Of a DNA stretch of 4,265 nt, positions 1 to 4,265 are shown one piece after another (positions within the stretch are counted from its first letter, which is position 1; the number at the start of each line of letters is the position of its first letter). The stretch is from the IMG/VR virus record IMGVR_UViG_2534681999_000005; one strand, written 5' to 3'. The position numbers were made by a program, and so were the translations under genes. The notes under the pieces were generated by a model. That model did no database searches. It worked only from the letters and a program-made list of their open reading frames with translations, and was not told the origin of the DNA. The DNA comes from a virus. Taxonomy: Duplodnaviria > Heunggongvirae > Uroviricota > Caudoviricetes.

Positions 1-599
1 GGAACGTGAAAACGGATTTATCAGCAACGGAAACGGCCTGGAAGCTGTGGGAACTTATGGGGGAGGTGTATTCGAACCGCTGGACCCAGAAGAACGGGGC
101 TGCGCCGTCGAAGCTCTGGATTGCTCAGATTGGCGCGATGACTGAACAGCAAATCCGGCAGGTCTGCCGTCAGTGCATGGACCGCTGCCGGGCGGGTGAA
201 ACGTGGCCTCCGGATCTGGCTGAGTTTGTGGCGTTGATTTCGGAGAGCGGGGCAAATCCATTTGGCCTGACGGTGGATGCCGTGATGGAGGAGTACCGTC
301 GCTGGAGGAATGAATCCTGGCGGTACGACGGGAGTGATAAATACCCGTGGCCACAGCCGGTGCTGTACCACATTTGCCTCGAGATGCGTGACAGAGGGAT
401 TGAGCGGCAGATGACGGAAGGTGAGTTAAAACGACTTGCAGAACGGCAACTGACGAAATGGGCAAAGCAAGTTGGTAACGGGATGAGTATTCCCCCGATC
501 CGGAGACAACTCGCATCGCCGAAGTGCCCGCAAGGGCCAACGCCAATTGAATTACTGAAACAGGAATACGAGCGCCGGAAGGCGGCTGGTTTTGTTTGA
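1..599 (+). CDS. Replication protein P-like (lambda P family helicase loader), 3' portion; probably 5'-truncated by the window edge
   Basis: Seen: the ORF is open to base 3 in frame, with the first in-window start a GTG at 6, and the TGA stop at 597-599. From memory: the C-terminal half (YPW...TEGELKRLAERQL...GNGMSIPPIRRQLASP) matches the pattern of lambda P (YPW...TDAELRRKAADEL...NRGEAIPEPVKQLP). Lambda P has roughly 35-40 more N-terminal residues, hence the likely truncation. Not verified by search. Confidence 0.7.
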   Translation, partial: NVKTDLSATETAWKLWELMGEVYSNRWTQKNGAAPSKLWIAQIGAMTEQQIRQVCRQCMDRCRAGETWPPDLAEFVALISESGANPFGLTVDAVMEEYRRWRNESWRYDGSDKYPWPQPVLYHICLEMRDRGIERQMTEGELKRLAERQLTKWAKQVGNGMSIPPIRRQLASPKCPQGPTPIELLKQEYERRKAAGFV

Positions 600-632
600 A
601 TCTGAGAAACGATTTTGTCGGAGGAAATTTTA

Positions 633-1349
633 ATGGAAACCGTATCTGACGCACTGAAAGCACTGAAAAGAGCCTCTTCACATGTGGTGGCAGCTCGCCT
701 TGGAATTAGTCGTGAAGAGGCTGTCAACGAACTGTGGAAACTGAAACGCCGTGGAGAAGCGGATAACAAGGGGGCGATATGGTGGCTGACTCAGGCTGGT
801 GAAAGTGAACCGGTGTCACCGGTACCGAAAGTGACGGCGCAAATGCTGACAGAGGCGATTGAACAACATGGCCCACAAACGGCGGATGAACTGGCATTGA
901 TGTTCGGAATTACCTCCCGCCGGGCGAATTCATCGCTGGCAATGGCAATCAGCAAAGGGTGTCTGATTCGCGTGAATCAGGATGGTAAATTTCGTTACTG
1001 CATACCGGGCGTTGATTTACCGGCAGAGCCGAAAGCAGCATCCGTAGCTGAAACGGAGGGTAAAGCCCTTCCTCAGCCAGCTGGTGTTGCGTTACCAGTC
1101 CAGGAAACGGCTGCACAGGAAGAAATTAAAACAGAAGCGGTGGAGGACATTGTGAAGTTGCAGCAATCGTTCACTGAAGCGAAAGCAGATGACCTGATTC
1201 TACCATCGCTGCATGTGGCTAACCGCGAGCTGCGCCGGGCGAAAAGTAATGTTCAGAAGTGGGAGCGAGTCTGTGCTGCGCTACGGGAACTGAACAAACA
1301 CAGGGATATTCTCCGGGATATTACCGCCACCAGAGAGCAGCAGCGGTGA
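633..1349 (+). CDS. Hypothetical prophage protein (238 aa) with two winged-helix-like segments and an acidic coiled-coil-like C-terminal half
   Basis: Seen: ATG at 633 preceded by GGAGG (620-624) at 8-nt spacing; the TTG at 615 from the ORF track has no SD. TGA stop at 1347-1349. HTH-like segments: [24 protein letters not shown] and [32 protein letters not shown]. Family not recognised with certainty. Confidence 0.6.
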
Positions 1350-1663
1350 GTGGCTGGAAGAAGTGGCGCTGGGCTGAAATCCTGATACTCCGGCAGTGTG
1401 CGGGAACGATGAGAGTCGAAAGCATCGGTTATCTGATTGGCCGTAGTGAGTCAGCCGTCAGGACGAAAGCGCGGGAACTGGGTATCAGCATGATGTTACG
1501 GGGTGATTATCACCAGTCAGCCAAATGTTCACAGCGTGATATTGAGCTGGCGTGGCAACTGCATCAGCGTGGTGTACCCCGACGGGAAATTGCCGAAAAG
1601 TTTGGGATGAAGTTGGGCGCAGTGAATAACTACGTTTATTTCGACAGGAGGGTTCAGGAGTGA
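1346..1663 (+). CDS. Small DNA-binding protein (105 aa) with two tandem GcrA-like HTH repeats
   Basis: Seen: GTG start at 1346 overlaps the upstream TGA stop (GTGA), suggesting translational coupling. The ORF-track ATG at 1259 would overlap the upstream gene by 91 nt and has no SD; the ATG at 1409 would cut off the first repeat. Repeats: W-x2-W-x2-E...[17 protein letters not shown] and [27 protein letters not shown], resembling the GcrA N-terminal HTH pattern (from memory). Start is uncertain between 1346 and 1409. Confidence 0.5.
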
Positions 1664-1962
1664 GGGTGAGGGTTTATATCGCCGGTCCGATGACGGGATA
1701 TGAAAATTTTAACCGCGAGGCATTTCACAAAACGGAAGAGGTGCTGAAACGGGAAGGGCATACCGTTTTAAACCCGGCAGTACTTCCGGACGGGCTGACT
1801 CAGCCACACTACATGGATATTTGCATGGCAATGCTCCGTTGCGTGGATGCGGTTTACATGCTGAAAGGCTGGCAGCAGTCGGCAGGTGCAGGGGCTGAGC
1901 TGGCACTGGAGGAGAAACCGGGCCATGCGGTGATTTTTCAGGAGGTGGGCAGTGAATATTGA
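1660..1962 (+). CDS. DUF4406-like protein (nucleoside 2-deoxyribosyltransferase-like fold), 100 aa
   Basis: Seen: GTG at 1660 overlaps the upstream TGA (GTGA), with AGGAGG-like sequence 8-14 nt upstream. The N-terminal motif VYIAGPMTGY, followed by NPA...and GW.QS.GA..E, matches what I recall of the DUF4406 / N-deoxyribosyltransferase-like family common in enterobacterial prophages. Not search-verified. Confidence 0.65.
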   Translation: MRVRVYIAGPMTGYENFNREAFHKTEEVLKREGHTVLNPAVLPDGLTQPHYMDICMAMLRCVDAVYMLKGWQQSAGAGAELALEEKPGHAVIFQEVGSEY

Positions 1963-2269
1963 CCCGGCGATAACGATTGATATGGCCCTGAACGCCGGCC
2001 TGGCACTTCTTGGTTATTTCTACATTATGTTCTGCAGCGGACGATGGCTGTCACTGTTGTTCATGAAAAAATGGAATAAACGCCGTAAGCAGGAGCAACG
2101 CCAGAAGGCAATGGATGCATTTTTCGAAGCCTTCGGAATTGACGGCATGGAACCAGGGGATCCAGCTCGCGCAATCAGCAGAGGGGGTGTAGTAATCCTT
2201 GTATATCGGAGTGAAGAGAAAAATGACGATCACAAAACAACGTGTAGAAGAAATCATATCCCGCATTGA
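1952..2269 (+). CDS. Small membrane-anchored protein (105 aa): one hydrophobic helix followed by a basic/charged region
   Basis: Seen: GTG at 1952 with GGAGG (1941-1945) 6 nt upstream; it overlaps the preceding gene's end by 11 nt. Hydrophobic segment ALNAGLALLGYFYIMFCSGRWLSLLF, then KKWNKRRKQEQRQK. The 3' end overlaps the next gene by about 47 nt and that tail looks low-quality, so the gene's reality and extent are uncertain. An alternative start is the ATG at 1982. Confidence 0.4.
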   Translation: MNIDPAITIDMALNAGLALLGYFYIMFCSGRWLSLLFMKKWNKRRKQEQRQKAMDAFFEAFGIDGMEPGDPARAISRGGVVILVYRSEEKNDDHKTTCRRNHIPH

Positions 2270-2540
2270 AATGTATGGACATGGTGCAGGGTATATCGCA
2301 GACGAGGTTAATGATCTGGCTATACTGGCGCTGAATTTATCAAATATCGCGAACCTGAAGCGATACGAGCTTGATATGGGAGGTTGCGACTCGTGCGGTC
2401 AGGATTGTGGCGCTGATATGACTGAAGATCCTGATGGTGATTATGTCCTGTTTGATGACGTGGTTAAGTTGTTTGAATTTGATACAACCACTCAAAAGTT
2501 AGAAATCCCGGCAAAGGAGGCAGCCAGTGGGCAAGATTGA
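2223..2540 (+). CDS. Hypothetical acidic protein (105 aa) with a Cys cluster (CDSCGQDCG)
   Basis: Seen: ATG at 2223 with GGAG/GAAGAG purine-rich sequence upstream; TGA stop at 2538-2540. In-frame alternatives are TTG 2199, GTG 2211 and ATG 2271. 2223 is preferred because the resulting N-terminus (MTITKQR...YGHG) parallels the N-terminus of the 185-aa protein at 3160. Confidence 0.5.
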   Translation: MTITKQRVEEIISRIEMYGHGAGYIADEVNDLAILALNLSNIANLKRYELDMGGCDSCGQDCGADMTEDPDGDYVLFDDVVKLFEFDTTTQKLEIPAKEAASGQD

Positions 2541-2964
2541 CTATCAGGCACTGCGTGAGGCAGCACAAAACTATCAATCGACGCTGGCGTGGTATCAGGC
2601 TACCCCGGACAGCCCAAATGCTGAACGGGATTGTGATGCGGCTCTTGCTGCGTTTAAGCGTCACATCCGTCATCGGGAAGCGGATATTATCGCTGATTTG
2701 CTGGATGGACTGGAAGAAGCAAAATCACAACTCAACGAGCAGCGTGAGTATTACGAAGGCGTTATCTCTGATGGGAGCAAGCGTATTGCTGAACTGGAAG
2801 CGCGGGAAGTTCAATTACCGACTCGCTACGACCTTCGATATGGACACCCGATAAATGCAGATGAGCGACATGTCATGATACCTAAAGAAAATGGCAGTTG
2901 GCTTTACCTGATTGACCTAGAACACGCATTACGCGTCGCTGGCATTCGCATCAAAGGAGAGTGA
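2527..2964 (+). CDS. Ead/Ea22-like prophage protein (145 aa)
   Basis: Seen: GTG at 2527 preceded by AAGGAGG (2514-2520) at 6-nt spacing; it overlaps the upstream gene by 14 nt. From memory: N-terminal IDYQALREAA and the C-terminal block SQLNEQREYYEGVISDGSKRIAELE...AGIRIKGE closely match phage lambda Ea22 (KSKLNEQREYYEGVISDGSKRIAKLE...AGIRIKGE). Confidence 0.75.
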   Translation: MGKIDYQALREAAQNYQSTLAWYQATPDSPNAERDCDAALAAFKRHIRHREADIIADLLDGLEEAKSQLNEQREYYEGVISDGSKRIAELEAREVQLPTRYDLRYGHPINADERHVMIPKENGSWLYLIDLEHALRVAGIRIKGE

Positions 2965-2965
2965 G

Positions 2966-3157
2966 ATGAACGGACAAATATCAATTGTTCGACCAGGAGC
3001 ATGTGACGATCGCGAAATACGAATGATTATTCGTCTGGCGATGGGGAAAACAATAACTGCTCTCATTACTCCAGAAAATCTCGCATTAGCATTAACAGGA
3101 AAGTCAGACATGCCAGTAGAGCTAAAGCTGCGAAATGTTGAGATTAAGGTGAAATAG
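2966..3157 (+). CDS. Hypothetical small protein (63 aa)
   Basis: Seen: ATG at 2966, one nt after the upstream TGA, with GGAGAG 6 nt upstream; TAG stop at 3155-3157. No recognisable family. Confidence 0.5.
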   Translation: MNGQISIVRPGACDDREIRMIIRLAMGKTITALITPENLALALTGKSDMPVELKLRNVEIKVK

Positions 3158-3159
3158 CT

Positions 3160-3717
3160 ATGACCACTATTACCAAAGATCGACTGCTGACAATCCAGCA
3201 TTGGCGCGAAACATACGGACCGGGTAGCAACGTTGTGCTTCCAGCAGAAGAAGCGGAAGAGCTGGCACGGATTGCGCTGGCATCACTGGCAGCAGTATCG
3301 GATGAACGAGCAGCCTATGAATTATTTATGGAGAAGCGTTTCGGAGAATCTGTAGATCGCCGCAGAGCAAAAAATGGCGATAGAGATTACATGGTATGGG
3401 ATATGGCGCTTGGCTGGATTATCTGGTGTCACCGCGCCGCCATGCTTCAGGCTGGAAACTTTCGGGAAAATAAGGGTTCGTCAACCAATAATTTTCGGAT
3501 AATCTCGGAAACGTCAACCAACTCTCCGGCAATCCCTGATGAGGTGTTGTCCGCAATCCTGAAGGTCGCCAGGCTTCGTGCAGATTTCGATGCTTCTGAA
3601 GTGGACAGGCGAGGTATCGGTAGTTGTCTGGATGAGGCCGAGCAAGAACTTATCGTTACCATTAACGAATACGCCAGTCAGATCGCAGTAGAAGCGACAC
3701 AGGGGGAGAACCAATGA
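3160..3717 (+). CDS. Hypothetical prophage protein (185 aa)
   Basis: Seen: ATG at 3160 with AGGTG (3147-3151) 8 nt upstream; TGA stop at 3715-3717. The N-terminus MTTITKDRLLTIQHWRETYGPG resembles that of the 2223 gene. No family recognised. Confidence 0.6.
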   Translation: MTTITKDRLLTIQHWRETYGPGSNVVLPAEEAEELARIALASLAAVSDERAAYELFMEKRFGESVDRRRAKNGDRDYMVWDMALGWIIWCHRAAMLQAGNFRENKGSSTNNFRIISETSTNSPAIPDEVLSAILKVARLRADFDASEVDRRGIGSCLDEAEQELIVTINEYASQIAVEATQGENQ

Positions 3718-3791
3718 GCCGGCCAGATGCATTTGCAGGCGTTGCTATAGCTATTGCTTTTCTAGTATATGTTATTTGTCGGTGGGGGTAA
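3714..3791 (+). CDS. Tiny hydrophobic peptide ORF (25 aa: MSRPDAFAGVAIAIAFLVYVICRWG), putative small membrane protein
   Basis: Seen: ATG at 3714 overlaps the upstream TGA (ATGA); strong SD AGGGGGAG (3701-3708) about 5 nt upstream; TAA stop at 3789-3791. The peptide is almost entirely hydrophobic. Translated by hand; below the ORF-track length cutoff. Confidence 0.35.
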   Translation: MSRPDAFAGVAIAIAFLVYVICRWG

Positions 3792-3826
3792 AAACGTTCG
3801 CCGGGATTCACACCAAGGGAGGGAAT

Positions 3827-3931
3827 ATGTCGGATGATATTTCACTGGTAATGGAAGGCGCTCTGGCTGTTATTGCTGTTGTGGGTGTTTACTGCCTGGT
3901 TGTGTTTTTGATGGAGCGCCTGGGGAACTGA
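3827..3931 (+). CDS. Tiny single-TM peptide ORF (34 aa: MSDDISLVMEGALAVIAVVGVYCLVVFLMERLGN)
   Basis: Seen: ATG at 3827 preceded by AAGGGAGGG (3816-3824) with about 2-5 nt spacing depending on where the SD core is placed; TGA stop at 3929-3931. Acidic N-terminus, about 20-residue hydrophobic core, charged C-terminus. Translated by hand. Confidence 0.4.
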   Translation: MSDDISLVMEGALAVIAVVGVYCLVVFLMERLGN

Positions 3932-3938
3932 ATTCATT

Positions 3939-3961
3939 CCGTATGGGAATTCCCATATCGG
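3939..3961. repeat. Imperfect 23-bp palindrome centred on the perfect 10-bp palindrome GGGAATTCCC (3945-3954); candidate hairpin or protein-binding site
   Basis: Seen: CCGTATGGGAATTCCCATATCGG is the reverse complement of itself apart from one indel. It lies 8 nt after the stop of the 34-aa ORF. No downstream U-tract, so it is not a canonical intrinsic terminator. Confidence 0.4.
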
Positions 3962-3970
3962 GCAAAACGG

Positions 3971-3999
3971 TTTGCTGTAAAGCGAGAGTTAAGTAGAAT
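3971..3999 (+). promoter_or_regulatory. Candidate sigma70 promoter for the hok/mok transcript
   Basis: Seen: -35-like TTTGCT (3971-3976), 17-bp spacer, -10-like TAGAAT (3994-3999). Predicted transcript start near 4006, about 110 nt upstream of the mok-like ATG. Match by eye only. Confidence 0.3.
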
Positions 4000-4017
4000 T
4001 GCTGCGGGTGCTTGAGG

Positions 4018-4053
4018 CTGTCTGCCTCGGGCATGCCACCGTAAGGCAGACAG
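4018..4053 (+). other. Stem-loop in the hok leader: perfect 10-bp stem with a 16-nt loop
   Basis: Seen: CTGTCTGCCT (4018-4027) is the exact reverse complement of AGGCAGACAG (4044-4053). No U-tract follows on either strand, so this is a structural RNA element rather than a terminator. Confidence 0.45.
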
Positions 4054-4059
4054 AGAAAA

Positions 4060-4126
4060 GCCCCAGTTAACATTACGCGTCCTGCAAGACGCTTAACATT
4101 AATCTGAGGCCCAATCTATGCTTCAC
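4060..4126 (-). ncRNA. sok: Candidate Sok-like antisense RNA, antitoxin of the type I hok system (boundaries approximate)
   Basis: Inference from established hok/sok organisation: Sok is a roughly 60-70 nt antisense RNA covering the mok translation-initiation region. A promoter-like element on the minus strand would start transcription near 4125, opposite the mok-like ATG at 4118. No canonical terminator was identified, so the 3' end is a guess. Confidence 0.3.
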
Positions 4127-4265
4127 AAACGTAGGTTAGCCTCTTACGCGCCGAAAGGCAAGGAGAAGCAGGCTATGAAGCAGCAAAAGGCGATGTTAAT
4201 CGCCCTGATCGTCATCTGTTTAACCGTCATAGTGACGGCACTGGTAACGAGGAAAGACCTCTGCG
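4118..4265 (+). CDS. mok: mok-like in-frame upstream start giving a 19-codon N-terminal extension of hok (MLHKRRLASYAPKGKEKQA-MKQQK...); partial
   Basis: Seen: ATG at 4118 is in frame with the hok ATG at 4175, with no intervening stop, and GAGG lies 8 nt upstream. From memory: this resembles the in-frame MokC extension of chromosomal hokC (ML...KVKEKRAMKQHK). Confidence 0.4.
   Translation, partial: MLHKRRLASYAPKGKEKQAMKQQKAMLIALIVICLTVIVTALVTRKDLC
4133..4161 (-). promoter_or_regulatory. Candidate sigma70 promoter for the Sok-like antisense RNA
   Basis: Seen on the minus strand: -35-like TTGCCT (complement of 4156-4161), 17-bp spacer, -10-like TAACCT (complement of 4133-4138). The most conserved -10 positions (TA...T) are present. 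Confidence 0.3.
4175..4265 (+). CDS. hok: Hok/Gef-family type I toxin (HokD/RelF- or HokC-like), first 30 codons; 3'-truncated by the window edge
   Basis: Seen: ATG at 4175 with AAGGAG (4160-4165) 9 nt upstream. Translation MKQQKAMLIALIVICLTVIVTALVTRKDLC matches, from memory, the N-terminus of E. coli HokD/RelF and is very close to HokC/Gef (MKQHKAMIVALIVICITAVVAALVTRKDLC). The ORF runs off the window. Confidence 0.85.
   Translation, partial: MKQQKAMLIALIVICLTVIVTALVTRKDLC

What the first reader, a model, noticed from the sequence alone, without database searches (positions are those of the whole stretch)
3960..4265. hok/mok/sok-type type I toxin-antitoxin locus at the end of the accessory operon
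The last ORF encodes a near-exact HokD/HokC-like N-terminus. Upstream there is an in-frame mok-like start, a promoter-like element about 110 nt upstream on the + strand, and a promoter-like element on the - strand placed to make an antisense RNA across the mok initiation region. This is the layout expected of a functional hok/sok module, unlike the decayed chromosomal copies known in E. coli K-12. Such loci stabilise the elements that carry them, and the plasmid R1 hok/sok locus has been reported to exclude phage T4, so a prophage-borne copy could serve as addiction or as abortive-infection defence.
Basis: partly seen in the sequence, partly recalled or inferred. Interest (0 to 1): 0.6.

Follow-up and report, generated by a model that had tools for sequence, protein, structure and literature searches.

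The report
Intact prophage hok/mok/sok toxin-antitoxin locus

Summary
Window 4175-4265 encodes the first 30 residues of Hok, identical to E. coli K-12 HokD. An in-frame ATG with a GAGG Shine-Dalgarno lies 19 codons upstream at 4118 (mok). The 5' leader at 4006-4180 matches Rfam RF01794 at 116 bits (E 6e-27). A genome identical over window 3700-4265 shows the rest: an intact 51-aa Hok (Pfam HOK_GEF, 83 bits), the 3' fold-back element and a terminator.

Every R1-defined RNA element is present: tac, its metastable partner, ucb, mok SD, dcb and fbi. These pairings are kept in 21 homologues at 93-98%. The antisense sok promoter (TTGCCT-17-TAACCT, minus strand) is identical to that of sokW of phage 933W/Sp5, whose -10 was inactivated experimentally.

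The locus is 94% identical to hokW-sokW. That system is a proven type I toxin-antitoxin pair that helps phage release on induction. Our locus is also the intact form of K-12's 5'-truncated Qin hokD.

About 87% of complete E. coli genomes hold a match to window 3700-4265, and PGAP annotates the gene as hokD. Its physiological role (addiction, defence or lysis aid) is untested here. Novelty: none. Interest: low.

The parts
3972..3999 (+). hok mRNA promoter (-35 TTGCTG 3972-3977, 16-nt spacer, -10 TAGAAT 3994-3999)
   Evidence: Read from the sequence. The -10 TAnnAT is nearly invariant at the same distance from the conserved mRNA 5' end in 21 homologues, while the flanks diverge. The generic scan does not flag it. 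Assigned by position and homology.
4006..4017 (+). tac (translational activator element), the 5' end of hok mRNA: GGGTGCTTGAGG
   Evidence: This is where the Rfam RF01794 match starts. It is invariant in the 9 close homologues. It pairs with fbi in the MFE of the full-length RNA and with ucb in the MFE of the 3'-truncated RNA.
4010..4032 (+). Metastable 5' hairpin (4010-4018 pairs with 4024-4032)
   Evidence: Nine pairs, 98.4% paired across 21 homologues against 32-46% in slid controls. The role in the nascent transcript is taken from PMC9841398.
4018..4053 (+). Conserved leader hairpin
   Evidence: Present in the MFE. 87.5% paired, and 4 pairs have changes on both sides (helix 2).
4058..4066 (+). 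ucb, the anti-Shine-Dalgarno box (AAGCCCCAG)
   Evidence: Pairs with the mok SD region 4104-4110 in the full-length MFE and with tac in the truncated MFE. The tac/ucb helix is 97.3% paired in 21 homologues.
4067..4102 (+). Long hairpin opposite the Sok stem. It includes an 18-nt extension (4075-4092) that is absent from hokC and R1.
   Evidence: Present in the MFE. The alignment shows the insertion is shared with hokW and other prophage copies. Compensatory G-C to A-U changes occur at two pairs (helix 3).
4106..4109 (+). mok Shine-Dalgarno (GAGG)
   Evidence: Lies 8 nt upstream of the ATG at 4118. It corresponds to the GAGG mok SD of R1 (PMC9841398). Conserved in alignment A2.
4118..4265 (+). 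mok reading frame (in frame with hok, 19 extra N-terminal codons; runs off the window)
   Evidence: Translation. Annotated mokW and mokC have the same 57-nt offset and a shared stop with hok.
4056..4126 (-). Predicted Sok antisense RNA (about 71 nt)
   Evidence: Coordinates were transferred from the annotated sokW of 933W (L001 1593-1663; window coordinate = L001 coordinate + 2463). They agree with the K-12 sokC 5' end, 8 nt inside mokC. It folds as a 5' tail plus a long hairpin, -33.2 kcal/mol, z = -6.0. No transcript data exist.
4133..4162 (-). sok promoter (-35 TTGCCT = complement of 4157-4162; 17-nt spacer; -10 TAACCT = complement of 4133-4138)
   Evidence: Both hexamers and the spacing are identical to 933W sokW. 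The sokW -10 was destroyed by primer YO-421 in PMC8621323, and that abolished antitoxin activity. The generic scan does not flag it.
4139..4143 (+). dcb (downstream complementary box, GCCTC)
   Evidence: Complementary to the mok SD GAGGC at 4106-4110. Invariant in 21 homologues, and the helix is 98.1% paired.
4161..4166 (+). hok Shine-Dalgarno (AGGAGA within AAGGAGAAG)
   Evidence: Nearly invariant in alignment A2. It overlaps the sok -35 on the other strand. Similarity to K-12 Qin hokD starts here.
4175..4265 (+). hok toxin ORF, codons 1-30 and one further base (cut by the window end)
   Evidence: 30/30 residues identical to K-12 HokD. The full 51-aa protein, read from the genome identical over window 3700-4265, scores Pfam HOK_GEF 82.9 bits (cut-off 22) and PHROG 251 'MokW-like host killing' 114.7 bits.

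Best explanation
This is a structurally complete hok/mok/sok type I toxin-antitoxin cassette of the hokD/hokW subgroup. It sits in the early-right region of a lambdoid E. coli prophage, between the replication genes and the Q antiterminator. The mechanism below is inferred from the R1 and hokW systems; only the sequence elements are shown here.

1. A weak promoter (-10 TAGAAT) makes an mRNA of about 420 nt starting near 4006.
2. While the RNA is being made, its 5' tac element is held in a local metastable hairpin.
3. In the finished RNA, tac pairs with the 3' fbi element, about 375 nt downstream and just beyond the window. The ucb box then covers the mok Shine-Dalgarno, so the RNA is neither translated nor bound by Sok.
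4. Slow 3' trimming removes fbi. tac switches to ucb, and the mok start is exposed.
5. Sok, an unstable antisense RNA of about 70 nt, is made from the minus-strand promoter inside mok (start about 4126, end about 4056). It pairs across the mok start, and the duplex is cut by RNase III.
6. If Sok supply stops, mok is translated. Coupled translation yields the 51-aa Hok, which inserts in the inner membrane and kills or lyses the cell.

The likeliest physiological output for a prophage copy is Hok production when Sok is lost on prophage induction or loss.
For: - Rfam RF01794 matches 4006-4180 at 116.2 bits, E 6e-27. hokC (118 bits), hokW (113 bits) and R1-type hok (87 bits) score comparably.
- Hok is intact in DNA that is 100% identical over window 3700-4265. 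It scores Pfam HOK_GEF 82.9 bits and is 51/51 identical to K-12 HokD.
- The MFE of the 429-nt RNA pairs tac 4006-4017 with fbi 4380-4392 and ucb with the mok SD, z = -6.4.
- Removing the 3' end switches the MFE to tac/ucb.
- Across 21 homologues, tac/fbi is 93% paired, with two U-A to C-G compensatory cases. tac/ucb is 97%, SDmok/dcb 98% and the metastable hairpin 98% paired. Slid controls give 32-67%.
- The sok promoter hexamers and spacing are identical to sokW. The locus is 93.7% identical to 933W mokW/hokW/sokW over 302 nt.
- hokW is toxic. sokW neutralises it only with an intact promoter. HokW localises to the inner membrane (PMC8621323).
- The mechanism of tac, fbi, ucb and dcb is described in PMC9841398.
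Against: - There is no expression, processing or toxicity data for this copy.
- The window ends at hok codon 30, so intactness rests on relatives identical over the last 566 bases. No genome in the collection matches the whole window exactly.
- Neither promoter passes a generic sigma-70 consensus scan.
- The tac/ucb, SD/dcb and metastable helices are nearly invariant. They show conservation but no covariation.
- In the truncated-RNA MFE the mok SD pairs with the 3' tail rather than with dcb.
- Native chromosomal hokA, hokB and hokC loci were reported not to mediate post-segregational killing (cited in bioRxiv 10.1101/2025.08.07.668861).
Confidence: 0.92

Rival explanations
1. Role rival A: lysis helper. 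The cassette works mainly for the phage. On prophage induction Sok disappears, and Hok damages the inner membrane and speeds or increases progeny release.
For: This is the only experimentally shown role for the closest homologue. Deleting hokW-sokW halves Sp5 release after mitomycin C, sokW RNA vanishes on induction, and HokW production needs RecA (PMC8621323). The locus is 93.7% identical. Here hok lies in sense orientation inside the early-right transcription unit. Read-through on induction could add hok sense RNA and collide with sok transcription; that step is inference.
Against: hokW lies elsewhere in 933W, near the right end and opposite in orientation to the adjacent large gene, so the regulation may not transfer. 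The reported effect was only two-fold. The host prophage here may be defective.
Confidence: 0.35
2. Role rival B: prophage addiction, that is post-segregational killing. Cells that lose the prophage lose Sok faster than the stable hok mRNA and are killed.
For: This is the classical function of plasmid R1 hok/sok, and all RNA elements needed for delayed activation are present. hok genes are about four-fold enriched in prophages (bioRxiv 10.1101/2025.08.07.668861). P1-like phage-plasmids carry 89%-identical copies.
Against: Native chromosomal hokA, hokB and hokC loci did not give post-segregational killing (cited). Integrated prophages are rarely lost by segregation. Genomes carry several near-identical copies (median 2, up to 10 per genome), whose Sok RNAs might cross-protect.
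Confidence: 0.3
3. Role rival C: abortive-infection defence. Infection by a lytic phage shuts off host transcription, Sok decays, and Hok kills the cell before the invader completes its cycle.
For: R1 hok/sok on a high-copy plasmid reduced T4 plating efficiency by 42% and plaque size by about 85% (reported in PMC8621323). The logic fits an unstable antitoxin RNA.
Against: Mok/Hok matches no PADLOC defence model. The survey found no enrichment of hok near defence systems. The T4 effect was modest and was obtained at high copy number. There are no data for single-copy prophage loci.
Confidence: 0.15
4. Inert relic: the cassette looks intact but is not expressed at a meaningful level, or its Hok is not activated. 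It persists by hitch-hiking with the prophage.
For: Both promoters are poor matches to consensus. Native chromosomal hokA, hokB and hokC loci were reported inactive for post-segregational killing and not activated by rifampicin. K-12 tolerates a truncated copy.
Against: All regulatory elements are conserved in 21 homologues across several genera, with compensatory changes in tac/fbi and the hairpins. tac, dcb and the SD boxes are invariant while the flanks are saturated with changes. This argues for selection on function. hokW-sokW is active at single copy (PMC8621323).
Confidence: 0.12

Closest known systems
mokW/hokW/sokW of Shiga-toxin phage 933W and Sakai prophage Sp5 (GenBank AF125520; Takada et al. 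2021, PMC8621323)
   Same: 93.7% nucleotide identity over 302 nt, with no net indel. Both have the same 19-codon in-frame mok extension and identical sok -35 and -10 hexamers and spacing. They share the 18-nt extension of the Sok hairpin, tac and fbi. Hok is 47/51 identical, with all four differences in the last seven residues. Both are carried by lambdoid prophages.
   Different: The genomic position differs. hokW lies near the right end of 933W, opposite in orientation to the neighbouring large gene. This locus lies in the early-right region, co-oriented with the replication genes and Q. The predicted Sok 5' tails differ at 4 of the first 16 nt. The Mok N-termini also differ (MLHKRRLASYAPKGKEKQA against MLNTCRLASYVPKGKEKQA).
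hokD (relF) of the Qin cryptic prophage, E. coli K-12
   Same: The Hok protein is 51/51 identical. The DNA is 261/264 identical from the hok SD (window 4161) through the CDS, fbi and terminator. The downstream neighbourhood is the same (DUF968/ydfU, then the Q-like antiterminator).
   Different: K-12 lacks everything upstream of window 4161: the hok promoter, tac, ucb, the Sok target, mok start, sok -10 and dcb. relBE sequence lies there instead, and Rfam finds no match. The window holds the intact ancestral-type form.
hokC/mokC/sokC (gef) of E. coli K-12
   Same: Same architecture and the same positions of mok and Sok relative to hok. The Rfam hit is 118 bits. tac and dcb are identical.
   Different: Hok is 41/50 identical. 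hokC lacks the 18-nt hairpin extension. In K-12 its 3' side abuts IS186. It is a core-chromosome locus rather than a prophage one.
hok/mok/sok (parB) of plasmid R1, the founding member
   Same: All named elements can be aligned: tac, metastable partner, ucb, mok SD, dcb, fbi and the sok promoter inside mok (PMC9841398). The tac/fbi pairing is maintained by a compensatory U-A to C-G change.
   Different: Sequence identity is much lower. For orientation, the four-residue-different HokW is 44% identical to R1 Hok per PMC8621323. R1 has a longer second hairpin and a shorter Sok hairpin. It is plasmid-borne with proven post-segregational killing.

Membership tests
hok/mok/sok type I toxin-antitoxin family | Small hydrophobic Hok/Gef toxin ORF of about 50 aa (Pfam PF01848) | tested here: met
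   Pfam HOK_GEF 82.9 bits against a cut-off of 22, E 1.2e-23, on the full ORF from DNA identical over window 3700-4265. The window itself holds codons 1-30, 30/30 identical to HokD. PHROG 251 scores 114.7 bits.
hok/mok/sok type I toxin-antitoxin family | Overlapping mok reading frame with its own SD, starting upstream of hok | tested here: met
   ATG 4118 with GAGG 4106-4109, in frame, 19 codons upstream. Annotated mokW and mokC, and the R1-type locus, have the same offset.
hok/mok/sok type I toxin-antitoxin family | hok mRNA 5' leader with conserved sequence and structure (Rfam RF01794) | tested here: met
   116.2 bits against a gathering score of 59, over the full model length 1-157. The model matches the hok-sense strand, as it does at K-12 hokC. 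The hit therefore certifies the leader, not the antisense transcript.
hok/mok/sok type I toxin-antitoxin family | cis-antisense Sok RNA with its own promoter, overlapping the mok translation-initiation region | tested here: inconclusive
   The sequence requirement is met. TTGCCT-17-TAACCT on the minus strand is identical to the experimentally validated sokW promoter. The predicted 71-nt RNA folds with z = -6.0. Whether the transcript exists cannot be tested with these tools, and the generic promoter scan is negative.
hok/mok/sok type I toxin-antitoxin family | Long-range tac/fbi pairing of the mRNA 5' and 3' ends | tested here: met
   Twelve pairs between 4006-4017 and 4380-4392 (the latter read from identical DNA beyond the window) appear in the MFE, z = -6.4. 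The helix is 93.2% paired in 21 homologues, with compensatory U-A to C-G changes in R1 and Pantoea.
hok/mok/sok type I toxin-antitoxin family | Alternative pairings that drive the switch: ucb/mok-SD, tac/ucb, mok-SD/dcb and the metastable 5' hairpin | tested here: met
   ucb/SD is in the full-length MFE. tac/ucb is in the truncated MFE. Pairing across 21 homologues is 97-98%. The columns are almost invariant, so the support is conservation rather than covariation.
hok/mok/sok type I toxin-antitoxin family | 3' processing of hok mRNA, RNase III cleavage of the duplex, Hok toxicity and post-segregational killing | not testable with these tools
   These are experimental properties. They are shown for R1 (PMC9841398) and partly for hokW-sokW (PMC8621323), not for this copy.
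Catalogued anti-phage defence systems (PADLOC-DB 2.0) | Protein matches a defence-system model | tested here: not met
   No PADLOC model matches Mok/Hok or the two small upstream ORFs at E up to 0.01.

The most novel reading that the evidence does not exclude
In this prophage the cassette lies in sense orientation inside the early-right (pR) transcription unit. Antiterminated read-through on induction could then both supply extra hok sense RNA and silence the convergent sok promoter by transcriptional interference. That would hard-wire Hok production to induction. In addition, the divergent Sok 5' tails of co-resident prophage copies would keep each copy answerable only to its own prophage: 11 of 16 tail positions vary among close paralogues while the stem is nearly constant.
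Probability: 0.2. Interest if true: 0.35.

Novelty: already known. Interest (0 to 1): 0.1.

Why it matters
It matters little beyond annotation. The locus belongs to one of the best-studied toxin-antitoxin families. It is near-identical to an experimentally characterised phage copy (hokW-sokW) and is present in most E. coli genomes.

Two practical points follow:
- RefSeq/PGAP annotates only the hokD CDS at such loci. It leaves out mok, Sok and the RNA elements, so the intact cassettes look the same as the truncated K-12 hokD.
- The Rfam 'sok' model reports the hok-sense strand, which can mislead strand assignment of the antitoxin.

The open question is biological. What prophage-borne hok/sok copies do remains unsettled among addiction, defence and lysis assistance. 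This early-region copy could serve as a comparison with hokW.

Tried and rejected
- Generic promoter and terminator scan. It found the hok terminator but neither promoter. It flagged one unrelated TTAACA/TATGCT site inside the leader, which I did not adopt because it is not supported by homology.
- First version of the truncated-RNA structure. My SD/dcb register was off by one column and gave 60% pairing. Corrected (98%).
- My initial guess that AGCCUCUUAC was ucb. PMC9841398 shows that ucb is the upstream anti-SD box and that the downstream GCCUC is dcb.
- Recollection that mok and hok are in different frames in R1. In the R1-type locus fetched here they are in frame, so no frame argument was used.
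- Exact source of the window. No genome in the collection covers all 4265 bases at 100% (best 99%, in two pieces). The upstream accessory genes are mosaic relative to strain 14EC047.
- PADLOC, NCBIfam and PHROG scans of the two small hydrophobic upstream ORFs gave nothing.
- The Rfam E-value search found nothing else credible in the window. A ceN48 snoRNA hit at E 0.99 is chance.
- The large protein-database, structure-prediction and metagenome tools were not used. The family assignment was already unambiguous.

Full report
**What is in the sequence**

The last ORF of the window starts at ATG 4175 and reads MKQQKAMLIALIVICLTVIVTALVTRKDLC before the window ends. An in-frame ATG lies exactly 19 codons upstream at 4118 and is preceded by GAGG at 4106-4109. 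Rfam family RF01794 ('sok antitoxin') matches 4006-4180 over its full length, at 116.2 bits against a gathering score of 59 (E 6e-27). It is the only credible RNA-family hit in the window.

**Extending beyond the window**

The stretch 3700-4265 is 100% identical to the chromosome of E. coli 14EC047, and 746 records match at 99% or better. In that genome the ORF continues to a 51-aa protein annotated hokD.
- It scores Pfam HOK_GEF 82.9 bits (cut-off 22) and PHROG 251 'MokW-like host killing' 114.7 bits.
- It is 51/51 identical to K-12 HokD, 47/51 to HokW and 41/50 to HokC.
- No genome in the collection matches the whole 4265-base window exactly (best about 99%, O157:H7 strains). Intactness of hok in this particular isolate is therefore inferred.

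**Anatomy**

Alignments were made with 933W hokW, K-12 hokC, K-12 hokD and an R1-type plasmid hok, and with 21 homologues from Escherichia, Shigella, Kluyvera, Pseudocitrobacter, Pantoea and plasmid R1 type. These place every element defined for R1 (PMC9841398). Coordinates above 4265 are read from the identical relative.

| Element | Window coordinates | Sequence or note |
|---|---|---|
| hok promoter -35 | 3972-3977 | TTGCTG |
| hok promoter -10 | 3994-3999 | TAGAAT; TAnnAT conserved in at least 90% of homologues, flanks unalignable |
| hok mRNA +1 | about 4006 | |
| tac | 4006-4017 | GGGTGCTTGAGG |
| Metastable partner | 4024-4032 | |
| Leader hairpin | 4018-4053 | |
| ucb (anti-SD) | 4058-4066 | |
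| Long hairpin | 4067-4102 | |
| mok SD | 4106-4109 | GAGG |
| mok ATG | 4118 | |
| dcb | 4139-4143 | GCCTC |
| hok SD | 4161-4166 | |
| hok ATG | 4175 | |
| Stop (beyond window) | 4328-4330 | |
| fbi (beyond window) | 4380-4392 | CCTCAACGCACCC |
| Terminator (beyond window) | 4399-4416 plus T-run | |

On the minus strand, TTGCCT (complement of 4157-4162), 17 nt, TAACCT (complement of 4133-4138) would start Sok near 4126. The annotated sokW of 933W maps to 4056-4126, and the K-12 sokC 5' end maps to the same place, 8 nt inside mok.

**Structure tests**

- The MFE of the 429-nt RNA pairs tac with fbi (12 pairs, one bulged C) and ucb with the mok SD. The energy is -178.9 kcal/mol, z = -6.4.
- Deleting the 3' end, including fbi, switches the MFE to the tac/ucb stem. 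This is the switch described for R1.
- Across 21 homologues, tac/fbi is 93.2% paired, with U-A to C-G compensation in the R1-type and Pantoea loci.
- The leader hairpins are 86-88% paired, with 8 pairs changed on both sides.
- The whole structure is 82% paired, against 39-47% when partners are slid.
- tac/ucb (97%), mok-SD/dcb (98%) and the metastable hairpin (98%) are almost invariant. They are conserved but carry no covariation.
- The predicted Sok folds into a 5' tail plus a long hairpin (-33.2 kcal/mol, z = -6.0).

**Caveats on the promoters and on Rfam**

The generic sigma-70 scan flags neither promoter, so both are assigned by homology. For sok the homology is strong. The hexamers and spacing are identical to sokW. 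Primer YO-421 in PMC8621323 changes exactly the AGGTTA box, and that 'pro-less' mutant lost antitoxin activity.

The Rfam 'sok' model matches the hok-sense strand. At K-12 hokC it hits the hokC strand, while sokC is annotated on the other strand. The hit therefore certifies the hok leader, which contains the Sok complement. It does not show that an antisense transcript exists.

**Context**

- The window is the early-right region of a lambdoid prophage. It holds the replication protein P C-terminus, DUF1627, an HTH protein, DUF4406, DUF4752, Ead/Ea22 and small ORFs, all on the + strand and many with overlapping start and stop codons.
- In relatives, hok is followed on the same strand by DUF968, RusA and the Q antiterminator. 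A complete 47.5-kb phage genome has the same layout. The cassette is thus embedded in the region and not at the end of an operon, and it has its own promoter and terminator.
- K-12 Qin hokD is the same locus truncated at window 4161 (261/264 identical from there to the terminator). relBE sequence lies upstream, and there is no Rfam hit.

**What is known**

- mokW, hokW and sokW are annotated in the 933W GenBank record.
- Takada et al. 2021 showed that HokW is toxic and localises to the inner membrane, and that sokW neutralises it. Neutralisation depends partly on RNase III and Hfq.
- They also showed that sokW disappears on mitomycin C induction, and that deleting the locus halves Sp5 release.
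- A 2025-26 survey found Hok in about 80% of Enterobacteriaceae genomes. It found four-fold enrichment in prophages and no enrichment near defence systems. It also cites work in which native chromosomal hokA, hokB and hokC loci did not give post-segregational killing.
- The T4-exclusion report for R1 hok/sok was modest and was obtained at high copy number.
- Mok/Hok matches no PADLOC model.
- Here, 4716 of 5426 complete E. coli genomes match window 3700-4265. The median is 2 copies per genome and the maximum 10.

**Verdict**

The locus is a structurally complete member of the hokD/hokW subgroup (confidence 0.92). The regulatory mechanism is inferred from R1 and hokW. The physiological role is open; I rank lysis assistance on induction and prophage addiction ahead of abortive infection and inertness. 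The finding is already known and ordinary.

Noticed in passing
window 3714-3791 (+): There is an unannotated 25-aa hydrophobic ORF, MSRPDAFAGVAIAIAFLVYVICRWG. Its ATG overlaps the stop of the preceding 185-aa ORF (ATGA). Homologous 25-27-aa ORFs (...PEAFA...LVVYSICRW-G/R) sit just upstream of hok in 933W (L001 1418-1501, directly abutting the hokW promoter), O157 SS52, E. coli ECMA0423 and L026, although the larger upstream genes differ. A small membrane peptide may travel with prophage hok cassettes. It has no PHROG, PADLOC or NCBIfam match.
   Followed up: partly
window 3827-3931 (+): A second small hydrophobic ORF lies between the 25-aa ORF and the hok promoter: 34 aa, MSDDISLVMEGALAVIAVVGVYCLVVFLMERLGN. 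RefSeq relatives annotate it only as 'hypothetical protein'. It is absent at this place in 933W. It matches no family.
   Followed up: partly
window 4006-4180; L004 502-654: The Rfam RF01794 model 'sok antitoxin (CssrC)' is oriented on the hok-mRNA sense strand. At K-12 hokC it hits the strand of hokC/mokC, while sokC is annotated on the opposite strand. Taking the Rfam strand at face value would put the antitoxin on the wrong strand.
   Followed up: yes
window 4111-4126 (Sok 5' tail / mok codons 1-3 and upstream): Among 9 close homologues the predicted Sok RNAs share an almost identical hairpin but differ in the 5' single-stranded tail. Eleven of 16 positions vary there, against 0 of 12 in tac and 1 of 9 in dcb. 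This could limit cross-talk between the several copies per genome, or it could simply reflect weak constraint on the Mok N-terminus.
   Followed up: partly
window 4075-4092: An 18-nt insertion (ACGCGTCCTGCAAGACGC) lengthens the hairpin opposite the Sok stem, compared with hokC and R1. It is shared by hokW and other prophage and Kluyvera copies, and Rfam shows it as an insert.
   Followed up: partly
beyond the window: positions 4313-4316 in L002-derived coordinates (L002 8614-8617): The Tyr47 codon of Hok is TAC followed by G. TTACGAA is invariant in all 21 homologues, R1 included. The Hok survey preprint says that hokC, hokD and hokE mRNAs undergo TadA A-to-I editing that recodes a tyrosine to cysteine near this position. 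This copy may therefore need editing for full toxicity.
   Followed up: no
window 4161 onward; L005 2025-2289: K-12 Qin hokD is a 5'-truncated derivative of exactly this locus. Identity is 261/264 and starts at the hok SD. The sequence upstream is unrelated relE-adjacent DNA.
   Followed up: yes
window 1-3717 (+): A chain of same-strand early-region ORFs runs through the window, several with overlapping stop and start codons. They are the replication protein P C-terminus, DUF1627, an HTH/sigma-70-r4-like protein, DUF4406, DUF4752, PHROG 3126, Ead/Ea22-like, PHROG 1222 and a 185-aa ORF with no Pfam hit. The block is mosaic relative to the genome that is identical over the hok end.
   Followed up: partly
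L060 (PP818812.1); L021; L026: An 'Actinobacillus pleuropneumoniae' phage record carries a 95%-identical hok locus within an E. coli-type lambdoid early region. Very short contigs labelled Acinetobacter idrijaensis (275 bp) and Xanthomonas pisi (431 bp) encode 96-100% identical Hok. These host labels look doubtful, through contamination or misattribution.
   Followed up: no
plasmid hits H58-H76: P1-like phage-plasmids of about 93-100 kb, from E. coli, E. fergusonii and Klebsiella, carry an 89%-identical hokD-type locus that includes the leader.
   Followed up: no
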